DNA of 64,000 nt, taken from positions 672,001 to 736,000 of the forward strand of contig CAXXWQ010000003.1 of NCBI GenBank assembly GCA_963674945.2, given 5' to 3'. Both the position numbers and the translations under genes were made by a program. Positions 1,530 to 19,499 of this stretch are shown here, piece by piece. The notes below the pieces were generated by a model. The model made no database searches. It was not told where the DNA came from and worked only from the letters and a program-made list of their open reading frames with translations. This DNA is from an uncultured Desulfosarcina sp. Its GTDB lineage: Bacteria > Desulfobacterota > Desulfobacteria > Desulfobacterales > Desulfosarcinaceae. The first letter of the stretch is position 1. Each line of letters begins with the position of its first letter.

Positions 1530-1874
1530 ATGAACGCACCTACACTTCATAATGTCCAAGTCATCAGTCGAGATGGAAAACCCGAATACGCCGTCGTGCC
1601 ATATATGGATTACCTACGACTTCTCGAAAAAGCCGAAGACAGCGATGCCCTCATACCCCATGAAGTCGTCGGGTTGGTCATCGAAAAAGAGTTCAACCTA
1701 CTCAAAGCCTGGCGCAAGCATCTCGGTCTGACCCAGAAAGAGGTTGCCCAACGCGCCGGTATCACCCAATCGGCCCTGTCCCAGATGGAACGTACAGCAA
1801 GCAACAACCGAACGGCTACTCTGGAGAAACTGGCCAAGGCCCTGGGGATCGAAACCGGACAGTTGGTTGACTAA
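1530..1874 (+). CDS. XRE-family HTH protein, HigA-like antitoxin type (no adjacent toxin)
   Basis: Strong RBS GAGGAGG. N-terminal GKPEYAVVPY segment and C-terminal HTH (WRKHLGLTQKEVAQRAGITQSALSQME). Confidence 0.85.
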   Translation: MNAPTLHNVQVISRDGKPEYAVVPYMDYLRLLEKAEDSDALIPHEVVGLVIEKEFNLLKAWRKHLGLTQKEVAQRAGITQSALSQMERTASNNRTATLEKLAKALGIETGQLVD

Positions 1875-1931: not shown

Positions 1932-2834
1932 TCATTTGCAAAGCCTTTGTAACGCCTCGCCTTCTAACTGATCCAGTTCTTCCAATTCAAGATGTTCCAA
2001 TTTATCCCGCAATTCATTTGATTCGTATGAACCATCTTTGTTTATTTCCAGAAGTTCGCGTAACGCCCTGTGAACTCTGGCTGAAGAGTACTGACCGCTT
2101 GGGCTGTTGTGTTTCCACCAAAGGACTTTCATGACTTCCATGCTTCCTTCGGGTCGTGCAGCGGAAACATCGTTGACGAAAAGCGTTTGTAGAGCCAATT
2201 TAATTTTCTCGGCGTCATCATCCGAAAAGGCTGTCTTGCTGGCAAGTTGTGTGTTGATAGCACCGTAAGAAACATAAATCCCCTTATCAACGCGGTGCTT
2301 CATCCCCATCGTATCCGCATTTTTTTTATCCGGTTCGTTCTCATTAGTTTCGAGATTGACGCTTTTAGTAATTTGCAGACTATCGGGTGTAATCGGGTCG
2401 ATGCTGAACGCACTCTGAATGGTTACAGGGCCCCGGATTCCAATAGAAACGCTATCGCTGCCCTCGCCTTCGTCTTTTGTTTTCTTTTTTGCCTTAAAGG
2501 CAAAGACCTGCCCAAAGGCGCGAACATCAAACCACTTTTTACATGCTTCTTCCCTTGTTTTCTCTCCCGGAATTTTGGCCGCGGCAAAACGAGAGTTCAA
2601 CGAACGATGCTCATCAACACGATTTTCATCTGACTGAACAAAAATGGATTCGCCCATATCCTGCAGACGGTTGCGGATTTTACGTTTGAGACAAACGTCC
2701 GAAATTTCACCAAAGCCGTCGTAGGTTTGGCGGGGACGGTTTCCGTTCAGCGGGTCGCCATTTGGATTCGCCCGGTTAACAGAGATAATCACCGCAAAAT
2801 CAATTTTTTTCGTGAGCACTTTATTGTCCGCCAT
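1932..2834 (-). CDS. cas7c: Type I-C Cascade backbone Cas7c (Csd2)
   Basis: NPNGDPLNGNRPR, SDVCLKRKIRN, DVRAFG, RGPVTI and TMGMKH motifs. Confidence 0.96.
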   Translation of the reverse strand: MADNKVLTKKIDFAVIISVNRANPNGDPLNGNRPRQTYDGFGEISDVCLKRKIRNRLQDMGESIFVQSDENRVDEHRSLNSRFAAAKIPGEKTREEACKKWFDVRAFGQVFAFKAKKKTKDEGEGSDSVSIGIRGPVTIQSAFSIDPITPDSLQITKSVNLETNENEPDKKNADTMGMKHRVDKGIYVSYGAINTQLASKTAFSDDDAEKIKLALQTLFVNDVSAARPEGSMEVMKVLWWKHNSPSGQYSSARVHRALRELLEINKDGSYESNELRDKLEHLELEELDQLEGEALQRLCK

Positions 2835-2845
2835 ATGTTACCCTC

Positions 2846-4822
2846 CTATTTGTTGCAATCGGTTGATTGTTTTTTCTTTTCAGCAGCAGCCTTAACCAAA
2901 CTGTCGATGTAGGCGCGTTCATGGTAATAGCCTATTAGATACGAACCGTTCAGCGGCAAATCTTTTTCGTAATCACCCGTAGTAAACTGATTCGTCACAG
3001 CTTGAATTTCATTAAATGCAAATCCGCTTTTCACCGTTTGAATATACGGGTTTAGGCAACCGTGAATGGTTTGCCATGTCCTGAACGGACGCTGGACAAA
3101 GGCTTGCATGTGCCGAATCGCAGCGGTAACCACACGGTCATTACCTTTTATGCGGAGGGCGTACTCCTCCAATTTGTCCGCCGCACCAAGCAGTCTGCCG
3201 TAAAGGTAATCACGGTCGGTTCTGTCGAGTTCAATGCTCAATTTGTAGTCCTCCTCGTTGCGTTGTTGAAAATCCTTGCGCACCAACGCACATGCCGTTG
3301 ATGCGATTTGCTCAAAACCATTACGGTCAAATTTGCCATTCCTTGTAATTGCCAACGGATTGGCGGCCCGCCGAACAGCCGCCACCACATAATCCTTAGG
3401 CAAAAACGCTCCGTCAAAAACACAGCGGAGCAACCGTTCCCGTGCCGCTTTTTTGATTTTTATATAGCTCTCATCCTTGCCGCCGCGTGGCTTGCCGTAA
3501 ACCGCCTCGGTGATTTTATCCACGGACGGCGCGCCGATATAGGGAACATATTTCTCATCAACTTTGTCCCAAAACTTTTGATGCCATTTACAGGAGCTAT
3601 GCCAGTCGGCGACCCTTTCAAGATATTCGTTTTTGTCCAGTTCCCGGTAAAAGGTGATGGACAACCGGCCGGTTGTGGCTGCGTCCAGTGCAATCACCGC
3701 CGTCTTTGCATGGTGCTTCAACGCCTGACCGTGCCCGAATCCGCCAAGGGAGTTTCTTAGCGCATCAGCATAAACAAAGCCCGTTTCGGCGCGAAGGTCG
3801 ATCCGGATGTCGCTCTCTGTTTGCACCGAATTTTTTTGCAATACGGCCCAAATACTGTTGTCTTCTATTGGCGGAGGCAGCAGTTTTTCCGTGGAACCAA
3901 TCGTGAAGGATAAAATGACCTGTTCACCGCAGTAGTATCCCCGATCATTGATAAGATACCGCAAAAATTGGTGCGCCTTCTGGGATGTCTCATACCCGAT
4001 GGAGACGGCTTCGGAGGAGTCTCTGAATTTTCCTCTAAACGTGTAATTCGTTTTGTCGTTATCAGAAACAAGCTTTGAATTTCCTGAAGCGTTGGAAATC
4101 TTTTTGGGGTGGGATGTCGCTATGAGTTGCTCCACGCCCGTAACATAGTCCAAAGCAACCTTGCTCTTCAGTTTCGTCTCTTCTGTTAATTTCTTCTTTT
4201 CAGCCAACGGCAATTTTTTCTTGCCGGCCAACTCATCTTCAGCCCGTTTTTTTCTTTCAGCCAGTTTCTCCTTTTCAGCCACATAATATTGATGCCACGC
4301 ACTGAAAAGCGTGTCGTCTTCCCAAGCTTTTGTTTGCTGCTTATTGGGTATTTCTACCTGAAAAATAATGTTCGTTTTATCTTTCAGTTTCATCTCCGAC
4401 AAATCAGAAGCGATAGTTCCTTTCGAAACATATTGATAAATGGCGTTAACCTGCTCAGTCGCAAATCCGGATTCGGTAAAACTCTTCAGTTGCGCAATGT
4501 AGGCATCATATTTCTTTCCATCTCCCTTCAAATACCCATACTGGTCAAAAACCGGATGGGGTGAAACACCGCTTGAACGCCCCAAGCTTTCTTCCGTAAC
4601 CGGAATTTTGATATTAACGAGAGGGTTTCCTGAGCCTTGGCTGGTTGGTTTTGTCTTTTTTGAAATTTTATCGGAACCAACAAATTTTCCTTCACCATCA
4701 ATAACGATGACGGCAATAATATCACTGTTGTTGGAAATGGATGTCGTCGAAAGCGGATACGTTTTTTTCAACGCATCCGAATTCTTGTCGTAACTGTCCA
4801 CTAAATGTTGCCAGAATCCCAT
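2846..4822 (-). CDS. cas8c: Type I-C Cascade large subunit Cas8c (Csd1)
   Basis: Lies between cas5c and cas7c. PHPVFD, KAHQFLRYLI, ATTGRLSITFY and C-terminal DYLYGRLL motifs. Confidence 0.93.
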   Translation of the reverse strand: MGFWQHLVDSYDKNSDALKKTYPLSTTSISNNSDIIAVIVIDGEGKFVGSDKISKKTKPTSQGSGNPLVNIKIPVTEESLGRSSGVSPHPVFDQYGYLKGDGKKYDAYIAQLKSFTESGFATEQVNAIYQYVSKGTIASDLSEMKLKDKTNIIFQVEIPNKQQTKAWEDDTLFSAWHQYYVAEKEKLAERKKRAEDELAGKKKLPLAEKKKLTEETKLKSKVALDYVTGVEQLIATSHPKKISNASGNSKLVSDNDKTNYTFRGKFRDSSEAVSIGYETSQKAHQFLRYLINDRGYYCGEQVILSFTIGSTEKLLPPPIEDNSIWAVLQKNSVQTESDIRIDLRAETGFVYADALRNSLGGFGHGQALKHHAKTAVIALDAATTGRLSITFYRELDKNEYLERVADWHSSCKWHQKFWDKVDEKYVPYIGAPSVDKITEAVYGKPRGGKDESYIKIKKAARERLLRCVFDGAFLPKDYVVAAVRRAANPLAITRNGKFDRNGFEQIASTACALVRKDFQQRNEEDYKLSIELDRTDRDYLYGRLLGAADKLEEYALRIKGNDRVVTAAIRHMQAFVQRPFRTWQTIHGCLNPYIQTVKSGFAFNEIQAVTNQFTTGDYEKDLPLNGSYLIGYYHERAYIDSLVKAAAEKKKQSTDCNK

Positions 4823-4824
4823 GA

Positions 4825-5565
4825 TTATTCCTCCTCCAACAAATCCGCCATGGAAAAATCATCATCGATGGATAAGAAGTTCAGGCCTTTCTCGAATTCT
4901 TTTGCCGTCATCTTGCGGATAAAACGTCGCATGGAAGAATCACAATCCTTCGGTATTGGAAACTCGATGATGCCGTCTTTCATTTTTGGCCTCCACAGAC
5001 GGACCACCAGTTCATGCTTTCCGGTTTCATCGGGATAGTCATATCCGTGAAACATCACGCCAAAATCGAGTTCCCCATATTGGTCGTAAAAACCTTCGCC
5101 GTCTTCGCCGAAAACACAAGGTTCAACATAGCCCTGACACTCCCGCGTTCCGAGAAAAACATCCCGCCGTCCGCCTTTTTTGATGCTGCGTCTGGCGATG
5201 TTGTGATGCTTGTGTTCGTTGCGATCATCGAAAAGTTCTTTTCGGTGTTCGTTCCATTCGAAATGAGCAAGAACCTGATACTCCACATCCCGCAAGTAGG
5301 TGTAGTAGGAAAGGTCATTGCCACCGCTCATTTTAATCGGCTTGACCCCCTTGGACTCGGTTTGAATCTTTTTCATCACCCGAACGGCATCGATGTACCA
5401 AATAAAAGTCGGCTTCCAGTAAACGCTTTCAATAATGCCTTTGAGTGCCTGATAGGTCGGGATCTGATAGGAAAATTTCTCACCGCCTACTCTTGTGACG
5501 GGATCGGCAAACATCGCGTATCGGCCCGTAATCTTAAATTCCACTGAATTGCGTTTTTTGTCCAT
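4825..5565 (-). CDS. cas5c: Type I-C crRNA-processing protein Cas5c (Cas5d)
   Basis: [45 protein letters not shown] and FLGTREC motifs. Confidence 0.96.
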
Positions 5566-7120: not shown

Positions 7121-8871
7121 CCTAAATTTTGCACGACGAATCATAAATAAGGAAGAAACCATCTGGGAATCCTGTTATAAAGGGAGGTGACATGCTTCCA
7201 CAATAAAAACAGGAGGTACCCAGATGGTAAAATCAAGTAAATCAAAAAGCCGTAAAAACCGCAAGAACAAAGGGTTTAAGAAAAACGCTGCCAAGGCCAG
7301 AAAAATCAACGCTTCTACGCCGCATGAGACATGCAGCGAGCAACTAAGTCCATTTGGCGGGCTTTTAGCGATGATCAAATTTTTCGATTTGATCGATTTC
7401 AAACAAATATTTAACTCCACCTATCATGCGCCTGTCCGGCAGCCAAAGCTGGGCCACTATTCGATGGTGGCAGGACTTCTGATGCTACTGTTTATAGGCT
7501 TTAACAGAATCTGGCATTTTACCTACATCCGACTCGATGCCATGCTGTGTGGATTTTTCCGACTGACAAAGTTGCCGGTGTCGAGCACCTTCTGGCGATA
7601 CCTTGACAGCTTGGGAATTAACCAAGCCCAGTCCCTTCAGAAGCTCATGAGCATTCTGCGAGAACGGGTGTGGCAACAACTGGGTTTCAATTATTACCGG
7701 ATATGCATCGATATCGACACCACCGTCGAGACGCTGTACGGCAATCAGCAAGGAGGCAGGAAAGGCCATAACACCAAAAACCGGGGAAAGAAAGGTTACC
7801 GTCCGGTGCTGTGCTTCATTGAGCAGACCCGGGAGTGTCTTATCGGAAAGCTTCGAAAAGGTGAAACACTCAGTGGCAAACAGACCGCTGCCTTTATCCT
7901 CCAGACAAAATCCCATTTACCCGGTTGTGTTCGCCAAGTCCTGCTGCGGGCCGATGGAGAGTTCCTGAGCTGGGAAAGTGTCCAGACTGCAAGACACTGC
8001 GGCTATGACTTCATCATCGCCAACAAGAGATGCGACCCGCCCTTTGATCCGAGAGGTTGGTATCGGCCCTGGAAACGCAAGGATGTTGAGTATAACAGCT
8101 GCGTCTATCAGCCCCTTGGTTGGGATACCCCGTGCCGGTTTGTGGCCATGCGTATACCGAAAGCCAAATCAACTTCAAACCAGCAAGTGCAATGCCTACT
8201 CTTTGAAGACGACAACTATACATACCGGATATTCTGCACGAACCTTTCAGGGCCGGCCCATGAGGTGGTCAGCAAGTATGATAAACGCGCTGACGTTGAA
8301 AACCTGGTGGGTGAGGCCAAACGTGAAGGGCTTGAGGCCATCCCATCAGCAAAGTTCAAAAACAATTATGCGTTCTTTCAACTTGTAGTGCTGTCGTATA
8401 ACATTTGGCGTTACATCAAGATGCTTGCCGCCATGAGCCAGGACAGAAAAAAGATGCCGCATTTAAAAACGGTGGCATCCAATACAATCCGGATCGCCAG
8501 GTTGAAGCTGCTTTTCATTGCCGCAAAAGTTGTCAAAGATCAAAACCGTGACAAGGTCAAGTTCTCCGTACACGATGCGAGAACGCCCGCGATGATCCAT
8601 TTTCTCGACTTCCTGGATCAAGCGCGATTGAAACCGAAGCCGTGGAGACAAGTGGCATGTTGAACGTCTGCGTAACTCGGGAAAATATCATGCAAGAATT
8701 TTTTTTCACGACAATTTCCTTTGTATATGGGCAGTTAAACGAAACACGTGCAAACCGTATACTTCACACTAAAGGCAACGATCATGTGTTAGAGTAGAAA
8801 ACGAACTCTTCGTCATTTTGAAAAAATTGGCCACCGTGGCCAATTAAAGCTAATTGCGTGCAAAATTCAGG
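7121..8871 (+). mobile_element. IS1380-family insertion sequence, 1751 bp
   Basis: 15-bp terminal inverted repeats CCTAAATTTTGCACG (7121-7135) and CGTGCAAAATTCAGG (8857-8871), 1 mismatch. 5-bp target duplication TATAA at 7116-7120 and 8872-8876. Confidence 0.93.
7224..8663 (+). CDS. IS1380-family DDE transposase
   Basis: 479 aa. LSPFGGL, IDIDTT, GYRP, LLRADGEF and YDKRADVENLVGEAK motifs. RBS AGGAGG. Confidence 0.9.
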   Translation: MVKSSKSKSRKNRKNKGFKKNAAKARKINASTPHETCSEQLSPFGGLLAMIKFFDLIDFKQIFNSTYHAPVRQPKLGHYSMVAGLLMLLFIGFNRIWHFTYIRLDAMLCGFFRLTKLPVSSTFWRYLDSLGINQAQSLQKLMSILRERVWQQLGFNYYRICIDIDTTVETLYGNQQGGRKGHNTKNRGKKGYRPVLCFIEQTRECLIGKLRKGETLSGKQTAAFILQTKSHLPGCVRQVLLRADGEFLSWESVQTARHCGYDFIIANKRCDPPFDPRGWYRPWKRKDVEYNSCVYQPLGWDTPCRFVAMRIPKAKSTSNQQVQCLLFEDDNYTYRIFCTNLSGPAHEVVSKYDKRADVENLVGEAKREGLEAIPSAKFKNNYAFFQLVVLSYNIWRYIKMLAAMSQDRKKMPHLKTVASNTIRIARLKLLFIAAKVVKDQNRDKVKFSVHDARTPAMIHFLDFLDQARLKPKPWRQVAC

Positions 8872-9687
8872 TATAATATAAATGATGCGTTTAAGCTTAT
8901 GCTTCTTGGCGTGTTCCAAAGCGAACCGAAAGCTCGACAATGTTTTGCCCCCACCGGTTGGAACAGACAAAGTATAAATCCCCTGATTTCGGCCGCCTTC
9001 TTGCTCGCACTGTTCCGAAATACTCTTGCGGACTTCGTCAATATCACCATCACCGGAAAAAGAACCAAGATAGTTTTCTAATTGTTGAATCAAATTTTTC
9101 CAATCCGGCACAACATTATCAATTTCCAATCCGGCGCTGTTGCATCTATCCGCATCTACAAGGCCGGAATAAACGGCTTTCGTAAGAAAATGCAGCATAA
9201 ATAACGGGTTTAAATTTTTCGTTTGGCATTTTTGGCAAAAGCCCCGAATTTCCCCCTTCAATTTGGTTTCATTGATGCTGGGACTAAAATTTTTGATCGC
9301 TTCTTCATAGTGGAGCTTATCTTCGCTTTTATTGGTCCTGACGGACAAAGTCCTTTCACCGTCGATAATATTATCAAACAAACCGCCGTGATGTGTTGCG
9401 ATGACATTGCCGATGATGTCCGCAAGCAGGTGGTCATCGATTTTTTTCTCCGCAAACTTCGCTCCTTGCAGAGCATGGATAACTTCGCCACGCTGTACTT
9501 TATCGCCCCGCAGGCTACGTTCCAGATAATCCTGAAATGCCTTTGTGTATTTCCCTAAATCATGTAGCAGACCAGCTAAATAGGCCGTATTCTCACAACT
9601 GAAAACACCAGCGAATGTTTTTGCAAGTCTTGCAACATTTGTTATATGTTCAGAAAGTTTCTGCCCTTTGCGAGCGATATAATCCAT
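8872..9687 (-). pseudogene. cas3: cas3, N-terminal HD nuclease and Walker A fragment (interrupted by IS)
   Basis: LSEH, LLHDLGK (HD), HHGGL, LVDAD and VPTGGGKT. The tail of the ORF-track protein after IIYIIP is IS-derived. Confidence 0.93.
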
Positions 9688-9721: not shown

Positions 9722-9811
9722 ATTTGGAATCAGCACCCCGAAAATTAGGGTGCTTCATCCACCAAAATGATAGTAATATTGTTTCAATCCACACCCATCG
9801 AATAGGGTGAC
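9722..9811 (-). CRISPR. Degenerate one-spacer mini-array (crRNA-like regulatory RNA candidate)
   Basis: Minus strand: repeat GTCACCCTATTCGATGGGTGTGGATTGAAAC (9811-9781; CACCC/GGGTG stem plus I-C-type TGGATTGAAAC end), ~24-nt spacer AATATTACTATCATTTTGGTGGAT, then degenerate hairpin repeat GAAGCACCCTAATTTTCGGGGTGCTGATTCCAAAT. Confidence 0.8.
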
Positions 9812-9824
9812 AAAAATAAATTCA

Positions 9825-10451
9825 CTATCGCCAAGAAGTTGGCCGAGCAAGCCTAAAACCATCAGCCTTTTTTACAATATCGGAAAATTGACTGTCCGCT
9901 ATTTTTTTCCGGCCTATTGTAAAGAAGGCATTTGCCGCCATTTGCAACTGCTTTGAATGCCTGTTGGGAGGAAAAGCAACAATAATTCGTTTGTTTGGAA
10001 AAAGGTCACGAACGGATTTAACGGGGCCGGTTAAATCACTGTCCCCTGATAATAATAATGCTGTATCGAATCGGTTATTAAATGCGTCAGTCATCAGTTC
10101 TATTGCAATATTCACGTCTGTCATTTTTTCTTCATGAGTTCGCCATGATGATCCGCAATTATGGCAAACGACTTTTTTAGACAGATAGTGGCCAAAATAA
10201 ATACTGCAATCGTGAAGTGTCTCAACGGCCTCGATATAGGCTGCCTGGCGTTTGCTTTTGTCTGGGTCTTGCTTATTTGATGAGACCCGGCTTGTAAAAT
10301 ATTTGGTATACGATAGGGTTTGATACTGTTTTAGAAGTGAGCGAGATAATTGTTGAATATTCAGCCAGTAATATCTGCGGTACCCCTTGCTTTTTAGACC
10401 AAAATAAAGGTTAAAGCCATCGATATAGGAGATCACGCGCTGCATTTCCAA
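9825..10451 (-). CDS. NYN-domain (LabA/DUF88, PIN-fold) predicted ribonuclease
   Basis: YIDGFNLY, EEKMTDVNIA and SGDSDL acidic catalytic motifs are intact, plus a CHNC segment. Start is TTG 10451 or ATG 10445. Confidence 0.9.
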   Translation of the reverse strand: MEMQRVISYIDGFNLYFGLKSKGYRRYYWLNIQQLSRSLLKQYQTLSYTKYFTSRVSSNKQDPDKSKRQAAYIEAVETLHDCSIYFGHYLSKKVVCHNCGSSWRTHEEKMTDVNIAIELMTDAFNNRFDTALLLSGDSDLTGPVKSVRDLFPNKRIIVAFPPNRHSKQLQMAANAFFTIGRKKIADSQFSDIVKKADGFRLARPTSWR

Positions 10452-10512
10452 ACAAGCCTCATTCCGCCAACAAACTACTTGACTTCCGCCGGCTAATATT
10501 CATATATATTTT

Positions 10513-10576
10513 CAATAGCACCCTCAGTGAGAGCATCACTGGGCCGACGCTCCCGCAAGGGAGCGTTTCTTTTTTT
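10513..10576 (+). ncRNA. Putative ~60-nt two-hairpin small RNA divergent from the NYN gene
   Basis: TTGACT at 10479-10484 followed by an AT-rich -10-like stretch (10501-10510). Hairpin CAGTGA-GAGCA-TCACTG, then a terminator. No plus-strand ORF explains the terminator. 5' end is approximate. Confidence 0.5.
10547..10576 (+). terminator. Rho-independent terminator
   Basis: ACGCTCCC-GCAA-GGGAGCGT followed by TTCTTTTTTT. Confidence 0.8.
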
Positions 10577-10579
10577 ACC

Positions 10580-10650
10580 ATTATAAAAGCAACTTGTATC
10601 TTAAATTGGTTTATCTGTCAATAAAATACAGTTCAATATTACTATGATAA
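10580..10650 (-). promoter_or_regulatory. Putative promoter region of the NYN-cas operon containing a PAM-flanked target of the mini-array spacer
   Basis: Minus-strand TTGACA (10621-10616), TATAAT (10585-10580) and TATCAT (10649-10644) boxes, exact -35/-10 pairing unclear. Plus strand TTC + AATATTACTATgAT at 10632-10648. Confidence 0.55.
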
Positions 10651-11309: not shown

Positions 11310-12329
11310 TCATTGAGGACTCTTGGTGCTACTCCTACCATCGCTCAACAGAGTTAGCGGATTCTTGTGAGATGTGAGCAGAATCAGGGATTCGTAATTC
11401 ACCACGCCAGGCATATTTCCCAAATCGCGGGTCATAAAATCGGTCATCTGATCTGAATTCTGAAAGGATGTCATGAACGCACAATTGAATGCCCCGACAG
11501 TAAGGGCCGCATACTTGACAGGCGAAAGAGACTGCAACGCTTCGGTCACGTTTTTCAGGATGGACGGATGGAATTGGACCAGCGTATATCCCCGAATGGC
11601 ATCCTCAGCGCTTGCCGGATCGGGGGTGGTGATCACGCGGATAACCCTCTGGGAGGTAATTCTGCGCAGACAGGAACGCACAGTCGGAATACTGGCACCA
11701 ATGTTGCCGGCAAGATCTTTTACGGGTATTCTGGGCGATTTTTCCAGTTCCCTGATTACGGCGAGATCCAGCTCACCGAGCTTGATGCGGAATCGCGAAG
11801 TGACAGCGGCACCATCGGAGGGAATCTGATCCATACTGCTCTTGATTATTTTCACCGACAACATCGTCTCTATCTTGACGTCTGCCGGGAGATTACCGAA
11901 ATCCTCCGCAAAAGCACCCAAATACTCATTGAGATTCTGATACATCGCCATCGCCAGAATATCATAGCGTCCTGCCGTCGCCCAAACGAACTTAACACTG
12001 TTGATGGCGGCAAGTTGCCTTGCCAGAGAATGCACCGCCCAGGGAAAGGTGTTGACCGCCAGAATAATTCGCGTCTCGTATCCCAATGCCGCATAATACG
12101 GTTTCACGGTAATTGAGATGACGTCTCGTTCGATGAGCCTGTTAAATCGCCTGTTAACCGTCGATGGGGATGTGCCCAGTCTGGAAGCGAGTGTCGCATA
12201 GCTGGCACGAGCGTCCTTTTCCAACTCTCGAATGAGCATCAGATCCAATTCATCAAGGTTCGGAAGGTTGTTTTGCATGCTTTTCATAAATTTACATCGT
12301 GTGAATCTATTTTGCGCTGCTTGTACCAT
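11310..12329 (-). CDS. Lrp/AsnC-family regulator with two tandem HTH-AsnC units
   Basis: LDELDLMLIRELEKDARASY and LGELDLAVIRELEKSPRIP repeats, TAGRYD. True start may be slightly downstream. Confidence 0.85.
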   Translation of the reverse strand: MVQAAQNRFTRCKFMKSMQNNLPNLDELDLMLIRELEKDARASYATLASRLGTSPSTVNRRFNRLIERDVISITVKPYYAALGYETRIILAVNTFPWAVHSLARQLAAINSVKFVWATAGRYDILAMAMYQNLNEYLGAFAEDFGNLPADVKIETMLSVKIIKSSMDQIPSDGAAVTSRFRIKLGELDLAVIRELEKSPRIPVKDLAGNIGASIPTVRSCLRRITSQRVIRVITTPDPASAEDAIRGYTLVQFHPSILKNVTEALQSLSPVKYAALTVGAFNCAFMTSFQNSDQMTDFMTRDLGNMPGVVNYESLILLTSHKNPLTLLSDGRSSTKSPQ

Positions 12330-15611: not shown

Positions 15612-16574
15612 TTAATGGTTCTGCAGGTAGATCTTCGCATCCCGCGCGGAGATCGGCATTGATATTGATTTGGGATAGAAAATGATTTCACTGCTCCGAA
15701 TGCTGTGAATCGTTTCCAGTTCGTTGATGAGAAAGTCCGACATCTCTTCCGCGTCTTTGAATGTGGCGAATACCAGCAGATCGTATCTGCCTGAAATGGC
15801 CATAGCGGTGTTGACCAGCTTATAAGCCGCTATCCTCTCGGATACTGTCAGGATGGTTCCGGGTTCAACTTTCAGAAATATTCCTATGCTTAACTGATTT
15901 CCAATCATGGCATGAGAAACAACGCAGTGAATTCTGACGACATCTTCATCAAGCAACCTCTGCAATCTGATAGTGGCAGTTTGTCTGGTAATGCCGAGTT
16001 TGGTGGCAAGATGGGATATTGCTATTCTGGGGTTATTCTCAAGATAGGTAAGTAAATTCCAGTCATGCTCATCAAGCTGTCGATACACTTTTGATGAGAT
16101 TGGTTTATACTCGGCGTCTCCAAGGAGGTTGAAGGAATATTTCATCACTTTCATGTTCGGGAAAACTTCAATGTTTGTGATGCGGGAGATCTTTCCCAAA
16201 TCGATGGAGACCAATTTAAAAAGCATTTCCGGATCGTTGTAGGCAGTCCACGCCAGAATATCAAATCGCCCCGAAGTTATCGACACAAACATCAATTCAT
16301 AATTGGCCAGTTCGTAAGCCACGGATTTGGCATATCCCTTAGATACATTCAGGCCGAGCATTGCCGATTGGAAACCGACCGAGGCAAGGTTGAGAGCACT
16401 ATAAAAGGAGATGGTGCCTTCATCCAGCAACCGGTTCATTCTCCTTTTGACGGTGGATTGATCGATTCCCAATCTGTCAGCCAGATAGGCATATTTTTCT
16501 CTGGGACTGTTCTCCAACTCCGAAATTAATTTTAAATCCGTGGCGTCCAGATCGCCCTTTTTTTTTCGTGACAT
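15612..16574 (-). CDS. Lrp/AsnC-family regulator with two tandem HTH-AsnC units
   Basis: LDATDLKLISELENSPR and LDEHDWNLLTYLENNPR repeats, SGRFD/SGRYD. Divergent from the GRE operon. Confidence 0.85.
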   Translation of the reverse strand: MSRKKKGDLDATDLKLISELENSPREKYAYLADRLGIDQSTVKRRMNRLLDEGTISFYSALNLASVGFQSAMLGLNVSKGYAKSVAYELANYELMFVSITSGRFDILAWTAYNDPEMLFKLVSIDLGKISRITNIEVFPNMKVMKYSFNLLGDAEYKPISSKVYRQLDEHDWNLLTYLENNPRIAISHLATKLGITRQTATIRLQRLLDEDVVRIHCVVSHAMIGNQLSIGIFLKVEPGTILTVSERIAAYKLVNTAMAISGRYDLLVFATFKDAEEMSDFLINELETIHSIRSSEIIFYPKSISMPISARDAKIYLQNH

Positions 16575-17024: not shown

Positions 17025-19499
17025 ATGGCTACGGAACTCAAAGTAATAAGGCAGACACCGAGCCCGCGCATGCCCCAACCGACAGCGAAAAAAGGGGGCC
17101 CGAGCACGCCACGGATGCAACGGCTGAAGCAGGCCTTCAGGGAAGCGAAACCCACGATTTGCGCTGAGCGTACTGCGCTGGTTACCGCGTCTTACAAAGA
17201 GACCGAGGCATTGCCGCCGATACTGCGACAGGCCATGGCCTTTGAAAAGGTGATGGACGAGATGCCGATCTGGATACAGGATGACGAACTCATCGTATCC
17301 AACCTGGCCTCCAAACCGGGAGGCGCCTTCCTTTTTCCGGAGTACGATGATGCGTGGATCATGCCGGAACTGGACACCATCTCGACACGGAGAGTTGATC
17401 CTTGGAAACTGCAAGAGGATGACAAAGAGATCATCAGAAGTTGTCGGGAGTACTGGAGCGGCGGCGGCGGACGAACCCTGTCAGCCAAGGCCGAAGCCCT
17501 GGTCACGGACGAGGTGCGCAAAGCCATAGAGATTCGCACCCTGTTTAATGGCCCCCTGGGGAAGATGTGTGGTGTCGGCCACATAGCGCCGGATATCGAC
17601 GGCGTCATCAAGCGGGGGCTCAATGCCTTCATTGCCGAGGCCGAAGCCCATATCGCCCGATTGGATCTTACGAAGCCGGAAGATATCGCCAAGCTGCCGT
17701 TTTTAAAAGCCGTCATCATCGTGGACAAAGCCGTGATTCGATGGGCCGGCAGATTCGCGGCACTTGCCAGAGAGAAAGCCGCGGTCGAGAAAGATGAAAC
17801 CCGAAAAAAGGAATGGGAAGAAATCGCCGCCGTATGCGAACGGGTTCCGGCCAACCCGTCGCGGAATTTTCGCGAGGCGGTGCAGGTCGCCTCATTCATC
17901 ATGGCAGCGGTACAGATTGAGCAGCCCGGTGTCTCAATCAGCACCGGCAGGCTGGATCAGTACTTCTTCCCGTATTACGAGAAGGATATCGAAGCCGGGA
18001 CGATCACGAAAGACCAGGCGCTGGAGATGCTGGAATGTCTCTGGATCAAACTGTCGGAGTCCAAGCGTGTGAGTCCGGAAATGGGCACGTTCGCCCTGAA
18101 CGGGTATCCCATCTGGATGGCCGTGACCGTGGGCGGTCAAACGGCGGACGGCTACGATGCCACCAACGATGTCTCCTATCTGTTCCTTAAGGCCTCCAGC
18201 AATCTGCAGTTACACGAACCCATGCTGATATCACGGATACACAAGCGCACTCCGGACAGGTTTTTAATGGCCTCCTGCGAGTCAATCAAGGCCCATGGCG
18301 GGGGGCTTCCCGCTTTGTTTAACGACGACCCCATCATCGCGAGCCAACTGATCCACGTGCCGGGCATCACCAAGGAGGACGCGAACGATTACAGTATTAT
18401 CGGTTGCTCGGATGTCGTATGCGCAGGAAAGGGCACCGAGGGACTGCCCTACCAGATTATAAGCTTGCCACGGGTGCTGGAGCGCATGATGACGGGAGAG
18501 GACCCCGGCAGTGGGAAGCCGCTGACGTCGGGTGTGGGAGACATGCTCACGTGGGAAGGCTTCGATGATATGATGCGAGCATACCACGAACATGTGAAAA
18601 TATGGGCCAGGCTGTCGTTCATGCAGGTGCTTCCGCTGCTGGAATTACATGGGAAGCATTTGCCCTGTCCCCTGATGTCTTCGCTGATGCAGGACTGTAT
18701 CGGCCGCGGCAAGGCCTTCTACGACGGCGGCGCGATCTATGGGAGCCATGCTGTCGTCAGTTGCCTCGTCGGGGTCGCCACCCTGGCCAACTCCATGGCC
18801 GCGATTCGGAAGCTCGTTTTCGACGATAAGATTCTTACCATGTCCCAGCTCAAGCATGCGATTGAGACGAATTTCGACGACGAGTCAACGACGCCCAGCG
18901 GTCCGGCAATACGGGGGATGTGCCGTAAAGCACCGAAGTATGGCAACGATGATCCATATGTGGATCACATCGCCAAAGACTGTTTAAACATCATCACAAA
19001 GGAAATGTGGAAATTCGAAACCGAACCCGGTCTGGGCTACGGCGCTGTCGTTTCACCGGTAACGGCCCATATCTCCCTGGGTTTCCTCTCTGGTGCTACC
19101 CCGGATGGGCGCAAAGCGATGACACCACTTTCCGATGCAACCTCCCCTGCCCAAGGCACAGATCTGAACGGACCCACTGCCGCGATAAAATCGGCAACCA
19201 ACCTGGAGTATGTAAATTTATCCCAGGGGGCCGTTTATAACATGCGCATGCACCCGGCATCGCTGCAGAGCACGGCGGGAATGGCAAAATGGGGCAATCT
19301 TATCCGCACTTTCTTCGACCTTGGCGGTTGGCAGGCCCAATTCAACGTGGTCGACGCCGAAGTATTGAAAGAGGCACAACAGCATCCTGATGACTACAAA
19401 GATCTCGTGGTGCGCGTGGTTGGCTACAGCGCATTTTTCGTGGATCTGGACAAGATGGTGCAGGATGATCTTATCAGCAGGACGGAACACGCGGTATAG
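17025..19499 (+). CDS. Glycyl radical enzyme (PFL-like family), substrate unknown
   Basis: 824 aa. GRLDQY, PKYGNDD, GATPDGR and C-terminal glycyl loop LVVRVVGYSAFF. Cys loop IIGCSDV. Confidence 0.93.
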   Translation: MATELKVIRQTPSPRMPQPTAKKGGPSTPRMQRLKQAFREAKPTICAERTALVTASYKETEALPPILRQAMAFEKVMDEMPIWIQDDELIVSNLASKPGGAFLFPEYDDAWIMPELDTISTRRVDPWKLQEDDKEIIRSCREYWSGGGGRTLSAKAEALVTDEVRKAIEIRTLFNGPLGKMCGVGHIAPDIDGVIKRGLNAFIAEAEAHIARLDLTKPEDIAKLPFLKAVIIVDKAVIRWAGRFAALAREKAAVEKDETRKKEWEEIAAVCERVPANPSRNFREAVQVASFIMAAVQIEQPGVSISTGRLDQYFFPYYEKDIEAGTITKDQALEMLECLWIKLSESKRVSPEMGTFALNGYPIWMAVTVGGQTADGYDATNDVSYLFLKASSNLQLHEPMLISRIHKRTPDRFLMASCESIKAHGGGLPALFNDDPIIASQLIHVPGITKEDANDYSIIGCSDVVCAGKGTEGLPYQIISLPRVLERMMTGEDPGSGKPLTSGVGDMLTWEGFDDMMRAYHEHVKIWARLSFMQVLPLLELHGKHLPCPLMSSLMQDCIGRGKAFYDGGAIYGSHAVVSCLVGVATLANSMAAIRKLVFDDKILTMSQLKHAIETNFDDESTTPSGPAIRGMCRKAPKYGNDDPYVDHIAKDCLNIITKEMWKFETEPGLGYGAVVSPVTAHISLGFLSGATPDGRKAMTPLSDATSPAQGTDLNGPTAAIKSATNLEYVNLSQGAVYNMRMHPASLQSTAGMAKWGNLIRTFFDLGGWQAQFNVVDAEVLKEAQQHPDDYKDLVVRVVGYSAFFVDLDKMVQDDLISRTEHAV

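What the first reader, a model, noticed from the sequence alone, without database searches (positions are those of the whole stretch)
9722..10650. One-spacer CRISPR-like RNA targets a PAM-flanked site upstream of a NYN RNase gene heading the type I-C cas operon
Seen: between the NYN gene and cas3 lies a single I-C-like repeat (GTCACCCTATTCGATGGGTG|TGGATTGAAAC, 9811-9781). Its hairpin has diverged but the 11-nt end is canonical. It is followed by a short ~24-nt spacer and a second, degenerate hairpin. Spacer nt 1-11 (AATATTACTAT) match 10635-10645 exactly, nt 12 mismatches and nt 13-14 match again. The match is immediately preceded by TTC (10632-10634) and lies about 190 bp upstream of the NYN start, among promoter-like boxes. 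Established: TTC is the type I-C PAM, Cas5c cuts at the hairpin base leaving that 11-nt handle, every sixth guide position is unpaired in Cascade, and partially complementary crRNA-like RNAs (CreA/CreR class) repress promoters without cleavage. Inference: Cascade represses the promoter driving NYN-crlRNA-cas3-cas5-cas8-cas7. Loss or anti-CRISPR inhibition of Cascade would then release a PIN-fold RNase with intact catalytic acidic residues, giving a CRISPR-supervised toxin or abortive-defence module. I do not know of a characterised NYN effector in this role, but I cannot verify novelty.
Basis: partly seen in the sequence, partly recalled or inferred. Interest (0 to 1): 0.92.

Follow-up and report, generated by a model that had tools for sequence, protein, structure and literature searches.

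The report
CRISPR-throttled RNase with its own RNA
A lone CRISPR-like guide RNA most likely makes the cell's CRISPR complex turn down a neighbouring RNA-cutting enzyme gene, which is a known kind of circuit, but this enzyme is a new passenger and carries a second, apparently undescribed small RNA that may be its antidote.

Summary
The solitary repeat keeps the array's 11-nt handle, and its spacer matches a TTC-flanked site beside a -35 box; 1 of 5000 shuffles does as well. Three other genomes have the same NYN-repeat cassette in a different type I-C operon, with a different guide that matches its own target. The circuit is therefore real and works like the published CRISIS/CreR repression. The NYN gene belongs to PADLOC family HEC-09, not named as a cargo in the CRISIS preprint text; its one tested member gave no phage defence.

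First, cas3 is split by an IS1380 element while Cascade is intact. Second, a 60-nt promoter-hairpin-terminator RNA gene (about 10517-10577, + strand) lies antisense to the NYN leader. It accompanies 94 of 95 close NYN homologues in three orientations, shows compensatory pairing and has no Rfam match. I read it as a probable RNA antitoxin, giving a doubly locked RNase. Expression, repression, toxicity and binding are untested. The scan noted I-C guide RNAs and NYN-plus-hairpin units on other DNA before; my look-ups did not find them together.

The parts
10632..10648 (+). crlRNA target: TTC PAM (10632-10634) plus protospacer matching spacer nt 1-11 and 13-14; covers the A/T-rich stretch just upstream of the operon's -35 box
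10580..10621 (-). Inferred promoter of NYN-crlRNA-cas operon: perfect TTGACA at 10621-10616; -10 candidates TACAAG (10598-10593, 17-nt spacer, start near 10586, about 46 nt from the PAM) or TATAAT (10585-10580, no good -35)
   Evidence: sequence; TTGACA present at all 4 loci, with the same next 5 nt in L183; not listed by the consensus scan; start site not mapped
10517..10577 (+). Small RNA gene of the NYN/HEC-09 family: short 5' tail, stem 1 (10523-10543) with conserved 5-nt loop, stem 2 as intrinsic terminator (10546-10567) and U tract; antisense to the NYN leader; candidate RNA antitoxin
   Evidence: z -4.4
10479..10508 (+). Inferred sigma-70 promoter of the small RNA (TTGACT, 18 nt, TATATA; 9 of 12)
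   Evidence: at least 9 of 12 in 73 of 86 homologues, 9.9 expected from shuffles
9825..10445 (-). NYN (LabA/DUF88, PIN-like) predicted RNase, 206 aa, PADLOC HEC-09 family; D11, N14, D112, D137, D139 (numbered from the TTG at 10451) invariant in 89 of 89 aligned homologues
9781..9811 (-). Pseudo-repeat 1: diverged hairpin plus canonical 11-nt handle, 14 nt after the NYN stop
9755..9780 (-). 26-nt guide segment of the crlRNA
9722..9754 (-). Pseudo-repeat 2: 8-bp hairpin and decayed tail; a 3' end in its loop would give a crlRNA of about 49-50 nt
   Evidence: size class from the CRISIS preprint
8877..9687 (-). cas3 5' part (HD domain to start of helicase)
7121..8871 (+). IS1380-family element inserted in cas3, with a 5-bp target duplication; 8 further copies at over 99% identity and one at 92% in the genome
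5586..7115 (-). cas3 3' part (helicase C-terminal half)
4825..5565 (-). cas5c, intact; Y49, K119 and H120 align with Y46, K116 and H117 of PDB 4F3M (their catalytic role is recalled)
2846..4822 (-). cas8c, intact
1932..2834 (-). cas7c, intact

Best explanation
A mobile defence-type cassette (promoter, small RNA, NYN RNase, crlRNA) heads this type I-C operon. One promoter near 10620 drives NYN, the crlRNA and the cas genes; only 14 nt separate NYN from the crlRNA and 35 nt separate the crlRNA from cas3. Cas5c cuts the crlRNA out of that transcript, and Cascade loaded with it binds the TTC-flanked site next to the -35 box. It lowers transcription without cutting, because pairing stops at nt 14. 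This negative-feedback loop caps both NYN and cas expression (inferred, about 0.85). Separately, the NYN family carries its own 60-nt RNA, made from its own promoter, which most likely holds the RNase in check as an RNA antitoxin (inferred, about 0.5). If Cascade is lost, inhibited by an anti-CRISPR or titrated, the operon is derepressed: NYN rises, and the transcript runs antisense across the small-RNA gene, which could also deplete the RNA. The RNase would then escape and cause dormancy or abortive infection (inferred, about 0.4). In this genome cas3 is IS-split, so I-C interference is probably dead, while the genes needed for repression are intact. Shown: anatomy, conservation, guide-target covariation, RNA structure. 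Not shown: expression, processing, repression, binding, toxicity, defence.
For: Match beyond chance: 1 of 5000 shuffles, 0 of 134 non-CRISPR upstream regions. Three more genomes (L002, L003, L183) have cas3-NYN-repeat-cas5c with a Cas5c only 28-30% identical to ours; their guide differs from ours and matches a TTC-flanked site at their own promoter in 14 of 15 paired positions, while our guide scores 8-9 on their targets and theirs 8-9 on ours. 4 of the 5 mismatches within nt 1-14 across the four loci fall at positions 6 or 12. A pattern for this pseudo-repeat hit 5 of 401 genomes: 4 are these NYN-linked units and 1 an ordinary repeat; the reversed control hit none. The geometry fits the CRISIS rules. 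Small RNA: 91 of 95 NYN homologues at 46% identity or more with enough upstream DNA carry it by motif (85 divergent, 6 co-oriented); the model adds L113, L115 and a downstream, convergent copy in L116. 96.8% of cells pair, 13 of 15 pairs show compensatory change, 0 of 500 shuffles reach this. It occurs once in the genome, beside NYN. 8 of 91 loci have tandem copies. AbiF has an RNA antitoxin that binds the protein (PMC12373285, abstract).
Against: The one HEC-09 member tested gave no defence against the phage panel and was not noted as toxic on induction; whether that clone held the small RNA is unknown, since the supplement is closed. L002, L003 and L183 are one lineage (cross-matches 13-15 of 15), so there are two independent guide-target pairs, not four. 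Only 3 of 158 NYN loci scored lie beside cas genes, so CRISPR control is an exception for this family. A close I-C relative without NYN has a similar self-targeting repeat unit (L048, 14 of 15), so such guides do not need a toxic cargo. The small RNA also occurs without a neighbouring NYN gene: 2 of 5 hits in 150 genomes and a second copy upstream of cas3 in L183. The best -10 box here lacks the conserved last T. The IS in cas3 has a terminator-like site on the operon strand and an outward promoter-like site and may uncouple Cascade from the loop. Co-inheritance of RNA and gene does not show binding.
Confidence: 0.55

Rival explanations
1. Plain cas autoregulation (CreR type). The crlRNA exists to throttle the cas operon, and the NYN-small RNA cassette is a self-contained passenger that inserted behind the promoter, as HEC-09 does in other defence operons.
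For: L048 has a cargo-free repeat unit between cas3 and cas5c that targets a TTC site at the next promoter. 38 of 69 close NYN loci lie within 300 nt of an upstream same-strand gene, i.e. they appear to borrow host promoters. HEC-09 gave no defence in its one test. Here the targeted promoter must also drive cas3.
Against: This pseudo-repeat family was found only behind NYN (4 of 4 real hits in 401 genomes). The NYN, RNA, repeat and -35 context are homologous in two unrelated I-C operons and at two positions, before cas3 and before cas5c, so the guide seems to travel with NYN.
Confidence: 0.25
2. The small RNA is a cis-antisense or attenuator element (type I-like control of the NYN message), not a protein-binding antitoxin.
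For: In 85 of 91 loci it is divergent and would be complementary to a read-through leader; in 6 it is a co-oriented leader ending in a terminator just before NYN.
Against: The same loop and 5' tail are conserved in divergent, co-oriented and downstream-convergent positions, which no single cis mechanism explains. Stems vary with compensation while the loop letters stay fixed.
Confidence: 0.15
3. The locus is decaying: after the IS1380 insertion the I-C system is inactive and the circuit is a recent relic; the genome relies on its type I-Fv system.
For: The only I-C cas3 is split. A second system with Cas1f, Cas2-3 and Cas7fv lies at G000:C3 815-822 kb. Contigs of runs X1 and X3 span the IS junctions, and no contig joined the two halves exactly.
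Against: NYN, the small RNA, the guide, the target and cas5c/8c/7c are all intact, the IS family is recently active (copies over 99% alike), and repression needs Cascade, not Cas3.
Confidence: 0.1
4. NYN is an ancillary crRNA-trimming nuclease, like the NYN of the Bacteroides fragilis type III-B system.
For: That NYN is a non-specific ssRNase proposed to trim crRNA (10.1101/2024.04.08.588522, abstract and passages). I-C crlRNAs have ragged 3' ends made by an unknown step.
Against: Our protein does not hit PADLOC's CRISPR-linked NYN profile at E 0.1 (L002 and L003 hit only at E 0.005-0.007) but hits HEC-09 at 4e-92. 155 of 158 loci have no cas neighbour within the DNA held.
Confidence: 0.04
5. 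The guide-target match is an A/T-rich coincidence.
For: Both stretches are A/T-rich and only 13 bases match.
Against: 1 of 5000 shuffles; unique in the genome; covarying pairs in homologous loci.
Confidence: 0.02

Closest known systems
CRISIS: type I-C crlRNA-supervised defence systems (Nezha, Gabija, Wukong and others; bioRxiv 10.1101/2024.12.27.630466; parts 1-3 of 6 and search passages read)
   Same: Solitary repeat unit right after the cargo gene, 11-nt handle, 3' hairpin, guide of about 49-50 nt, partial match with mismatches at 6 and 12, TTC PAM, target beside the cargo's promoter.
   Different: The cargo is a NYN RNase; 'NYN' occurs 0 times in that text (supplements closed). Here the cassette lies upstream of cas3, outside the cas3-cas5c interval those authors scanned, so the loop also covers cas3. 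The cargo has a second, non-CRISPR small RNA.
CreR / mini-array autoregulation of cas operons (bioRxiv 10.1101/2023.03.03.530964, passages read; CreR itself from the review PMC12737573, passages)
   Same: A repeat-derived guide aimed at the promoter that drives the cas genes.
   Different: CreR units carry no cargo; that preprint's main text has no mention of NYN or of I-C.
HEC-09 (Hma-embedded candidate 9; PADLOC PDLC04163; bioRxiv 10.1101/2024.01.29.577857, passages read)
   Same: Full-length profile match (E 3.9e-92), same NYN aspartates, same habit of sitting inside defence operons.
   Different: Described as a single gene with no defence detected; the main text has no hit for 'ncRNA', 'small RNA' or 'CRISPR'.
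Type III toxin-antitoxin systems (ToxIN, CptIN, TenpIN; PMC5086642, passages) and AbiF with its ncRNA (PMC12373285, abstract)
   Same: An RNase gene with an adjacent small structured RNA that has its own promoter and terminator, sometimes in tandem copies.
   Different: The enzyme is a PIN-like NYN, not ToxN or HEPN. The RNA is usually one two-hairpin unit transcribed away from the gene, not a co-transcribed repeat array, and no pseudoknot was evident or tested.
CreTA / CrePA CRISPR-repressed toxins (bioRxiv 10.1101/2024.01.05.574328, search listing only; passages on them)
   Same: Cascade plus a crRNA-like RNA represses a toxic gene, giving addiction and anti-anti-CRISPR defence.
   Different: Those toxins are a tRNA-sequestering RNA or a phage-derived protein in types I-B and I-F, and the crlRNA is their only antitoxin.

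Membership tests
Type I-C crlRNA / CRISIS | Solitary repeat unit with the array's 11-nt handle, directly after the cargo gene | tested here: met
   14 nt after the NYN stop; same in L002, L003, L183
Type I-C crlRNA / CRISIS | Partial guide match with TTC PAM and mismatches at positions 6 or 12 | tested here: met
Type I-C crlRNA / CRISIS | Target 37-46 bp from the cargo's transcription start | tested here: inconclusive
   About 46 nt if the -10 is TACAAG, about 59 if TATAAT; start not mapped. In L002, L003 and L183 the target overlaps the inferred start instead.
Type I-C crlRNA / CRISIS | Cassette between cas3 and cas5c | tested here: not met
   Upstream of cas3 here; met in L002, L003 and L183
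Type I-C crlRNA / CRISIS | Intact Cas5c, Cas8c, Cas7c | tested here: met
   their expression past the IS is unknown
Type I-C crlRNA / CRISIS | Processed RNA and Cascade-dependent repression | not testable with these tools
   needs small-RNA sequencing and a reporter
Type I-C crlRNA / CRISIS | Cargo is anti-phage or toxic when derepressed | not testable with these tools
   One published HEC-09 test was negative
HEC-09 | Full-length match to PDLC04163 | tested here: met
   E 3.9e-92, profile 1-203 of 203
HEC-09 | NYN catalytic aspartates | tested here: met
   invariant in 89 of 89
Type III toxin-antitoxin | Toxin of ToxN/CptN/TenpN or AbiF-HEPN type | tested here: not met
   Pfam finds only NYN
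Type III toxin-antitoxin | Adjacent small RNA with own promoter and intrinsic terminator | tested here: met
Type III toxin-antitoxin | Antitoxin as tandem repeats co-transcribed upstream of the toxin | tested here: not met
   One divergent unit here; 8 of 91 loci tandem, 6 of 91 co-oriented
Type III toxin-antitoxin | Pseudoknotted antitoxin | not tested
   Only the two nested helices were counted
Type III toxin-antitoxin | RNA binds and neutralises the protein | not testable with these tools
   needs co-purification and rescue in trans
Type III-B CRISPR ancillary NYN | Match to the CRISPR-linked NYN profile and a type III locus | tested here: not met
   no hit to PDLC01154 at E 0.1; locus is type I-C
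Known Rfam RNA family | Match to an Rfam 15 model | tested here: not met
   9 loci scanned, only one chance-level hit at E 2.5 elsewhere

The most novel reading that the evidence does not exclude
HEC-09-type NYN genes and their 60-nt RNA form an unrecognised, widespread family of protein-RNA toxin-antitoxin modules, with a PIN-like RNase where known families have ToxN or HEPN. In some sulfate reducers this module has been captured by type I-C CRISPR and locked by two different RNAs. Anti-CRISPR action would both raise the toxin and, by antisense read-through, remove its antitoxin, making a sharp abortive switch.
Probability: 0.35. Interest if true: 0.83.

Novelty: new variant of a known kind. 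Interest (0 to 1): 0.68.

Why it matters
It adds an RNase to the cargoes that type I-C CRISPR supervises and shows the guide being rewired (new sequence, other strand, other side of the promoter) as the cassette moves between unrelated cas operons. More broadly, it offers a testable reason why HEC-09 looked inert: the family carries a conserved small RNA that may have been cloned along with it. If that RNA is an antitoxin, it defines a new class of RNA-neutralised RNase, present in many bacterial groups and with distant relatives on small plasmids. The module is two short genes, so it can be tested directly in a laboratory strain.

Tried and rejected
Expression: no RNA holder was listed among public runs; contigs of four runs gave presence only. 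No structure model of NYN was obtained; the PDB sequence search gave only 2QIP at E 0.0012. Viral contigs: the single-protein scan found no relative; the alignment scan found 35 loci, none beside cas genes; a pattern for the small RNA gave one match inside a long reading frame, which I rejected as chance. Family-level searches found no further close NYN: 0 of 64 other genomes in the window's family, 0 of 51 and 0 of 22 others in the families of G103 and G281. The NYN tree (quick method; careful search and clade test unfinished; L120 and L128 left out; 39 proteins have unknown context) places our gene and L002/L003 in two separate supported clades within an unresolved group, so one or two captures cannot be told apart. 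The leader hairpin at 10546-10567 first looked like a second CRISPR repeat; rejected because it is the terminator of the small RNA and occurs at non-CRISPR NYN loci. The 12 other genome matches to the 11-nt handle outside the array were inspected by eye and showed no repeat-like hairpin. A tRNA anticodon-loop mimic was considered for stem 1, but the position that would be U33 is G here, so I do not claim it. Complex prediction was not used: it cannot score an RNA partner. The journal version of the mini-array paper is not held; the preprint was read in passages.

Full report
Observation. The unit at 9811-9781 ends in the same 11 nt as the 25 repeats of the main array just outside the window, while its stem has diverged. 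The guide segment is 26 nt and is followed by an 8-bp hairpin. Guide nt 1-11 and 13-14 match 10635-10648 on the + strand behind a TTC. The 11-mer occurs only as guide and target in 7.08 Mb. 1 of 5000 shuffles of the upstream 450 nt, and 0 of 134 upstream regions of non-CRISPR NYN homologues, score as well.

Surroundings. The operon on the - strand is NYN, repeat unit, cas3, cas5c, cas8c, cas7c, then cas4 and cas1. cas3 is split by an IS1380 element at 7121-8871 with a 5-bp duplication; the element has 9 further copies in the genome. Contigs of runs X1 and X3 span its junctions. The Cascade genes are intact, and Cas5c keeps the residues aligned with Y46, K116 and H117 of PDB 4F3M (their role is recalled). 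A separate type I-Fv system lies elsewhere in the genome. There is no room for a promoter between NYN and the repeat unit (14 nt) or between the unit and cas3 (35 nt), so the promoter upstream of NYN probably drives all of them; promoter-like sites inside NYN are not excluded. A perfect TTGACA lies 10 nt from the PAM; its best -10 box is imperfect and the consensus scan did not list it.

Homologous loci. Of 158 NYN loci scored, 3 lie beside cas genes: this one, L002 and L003; many contigs are short and some loci are duplicates. A pattern for the pseudo-repeat then hit 5 of 401 genomes of the order, adding L183; the fifth hit is an ordinary repeat. In L002, L003 and L183 the order is cas3, NYN, repeat unit, cas5c, with Cas5c only 28-30% identical to ours. 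Their guide differs from ours and matches a TTC-flanked site on the sense strand, 31-36 nt after the start of a TTGACA and so over the inferred start site, in 14 of 15 paired positions; cross-matches between the lineages give 8-9. Four of the five mismatches within nt 1-14 fall at positions 6 or 12. These three loci are one lineage, so the evidence is two independent guide-target pairs. Named members of one protein cluster in that lineage come from Desulfobacteraceae. Seven closer I-C relatives (Cas5c 55-60%) have no NYN; one of them, L048, has a cargo-free unit that targets the next promoter. That is the main support for the passenger reading.

The second RNA. Between the target and the NYN start lies a conserved double hairpin. 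Read on the + strand it is a small gene: promoter, short tail, stem 1 with a conserved five-base loop, terminator stem and U tract. Among 100 NYN loci at 46% identity or more, 95 had at least 170 nt upstream, and 91 of these carry the core motif, 85 divergent and 6 co-oriented; 8 have tandem copies. I aligned 86 of the 91. 96.8% of cells pair, 13 of 15 pairs show compensatory change, 0 of 500 shuffles reach any of the five measures, and slid controls pair at 36-46%. The covariance model recovers the 5 loci left out, plus L113, L115 and a convergent copy downstream of the gene in L116, giving 94 of 95. It hits the genome once, at 10504-10584. A promoter of at least 9 of 12 precedes the RNA in 73 of 86 loci against 9.9 in shuffles. 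It has no Rfam match. Linkage is not absolute: of 5 hits in 150 genomes, 2 are beside intact NYN, 1 beside a NYN fragment and 2 are orphans, and L183 has a second copy upstream of cas3. Distant NYN homologues (below 46%) have a different but similarly built unit in 27 of 57 loci against 0 of 300 control genes; I set those criteria after seeing some of the same loci.

Mechanism. Shown by sequence: anatomy, covariation, RNA structure. Inferred from the CRISIS work: Cas5c processing, Cascade binding and repression without cleavage. Inferred by analogy with AbiF and type III toxin-antitoxin systems: the small RNA restrains the RNase. Conservation of its loop in three orientations argues for recognition by a protein rather than a cis role. 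My own inference: because the operon transcript crosses the small-RNA gene in antisense, derepression could raise the enzyme and lower its inhibitor together. Against a toxin role stands the one published test of the family.

Comparison with what is known. The circuit works like CRISIS and meets its sequence criteria except position; the functional criteria could not be tested. The protein is a member of HEC-09. In that preprint one member, cloned with about 150 bp upstream and induced, gave no defence and was not among the two clones noted as toxic. The module fails two defining features of classical type III systems, so I do not file it there.

Literature seen: CRISIS preprint, parts 1-3 of 6 and passages; HEC preprint, mini-array preprint, PMC5086642, PMC12737573, PMC10910872 and 10.1101/2024.10.29.618823, passages; B. 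fragilis NYN preprint, abstract and passages; PMC12373285, abstract. Ten searches showed no paper that names NYN or HEC-09 as a crlRNA cargo or describes this small RNA. Several returned more papers than were listed, the library lacks most subscription journals, and preprint supplements were closed, so novelty is provisional. I saw the small RNA before reading the scan's earlier notes on NYN-plus-hairpin units.

Verdict. Real feature, known regulatory principle, new cargo, and a probably undescribed companion RNA. Novelty: new variant of a known kind.

Noticed in passing
window 7121-8871: IS1380 element in cas3 with a terminator-like site on the operon strand (7322-7307) and an outward promoter-like site (7169-7140) that could drive cas5c-8c-7c independently of the targeted promoter.
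   Followed up: partly
window 1530-1874 (+): Orphan HTH antitoxin-like gene lying antisense between cas7c and cas4, with no room for a toxin partner upstream.
   Followed up: partly
G000:C3 about 815400-821900 (L184): Second CRISPR-Cas system, type I-Fv (Cas1f, Cas2-3, Cas7fv, Cas6f).
   Followed up: partly
L048:1360-1215 (-): Cargo-free CreR-like repeat unit between cas3 and cas5c whose guide matches a TTC-flanked site 92 nt downstream, 14 of 15 paired positions.
   Followed up: partly
L183:12233-12311 (+): Second, orphan copy of the NYN-associated small RNA with its promoter, divergent from cas3; possibly left by an earlier cassette at the position ours occupies.
   Followed up: partly
L175 and L177, about 1500-1590: Two orphan copies of the small RNA in one genome, beside methyltransferase-like and other defence-island-like reading frames.
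   Followed up: partly
L006-L029 upstream of NYN: Distant NYN homologues in the same order carry at least two other promoter-CCCC-hairpin-terminator RNA types, co-oriented with the gene; no Rfam match for those scanned.
   Followed up: partly
L186 (plasmid NZ_CP091696.1, 3461 bp): A 34% NYN homologue is one of only three annotated genes on a small plasmid and has hairpins in its leader; fits an addiction-module role but was not tested.
   Followed up: no
L040, L041, L183 between cas7c and cas4/cas1: The spacing and gene content between cas7c and cas4 differ among the three related operons; L183 has an extra 349-codon reading frame splitting cas4 after codon 22.
   Followed up: no
window 11310-12329 and 15612-16574 (-): Two tandem-domain Lrp/AsnC regulators near a glycyl-radical-enzyme-like gene (17025-19499) and an activase-like gene (the last two labels are from my reading of the sequence).
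   Followed up: no
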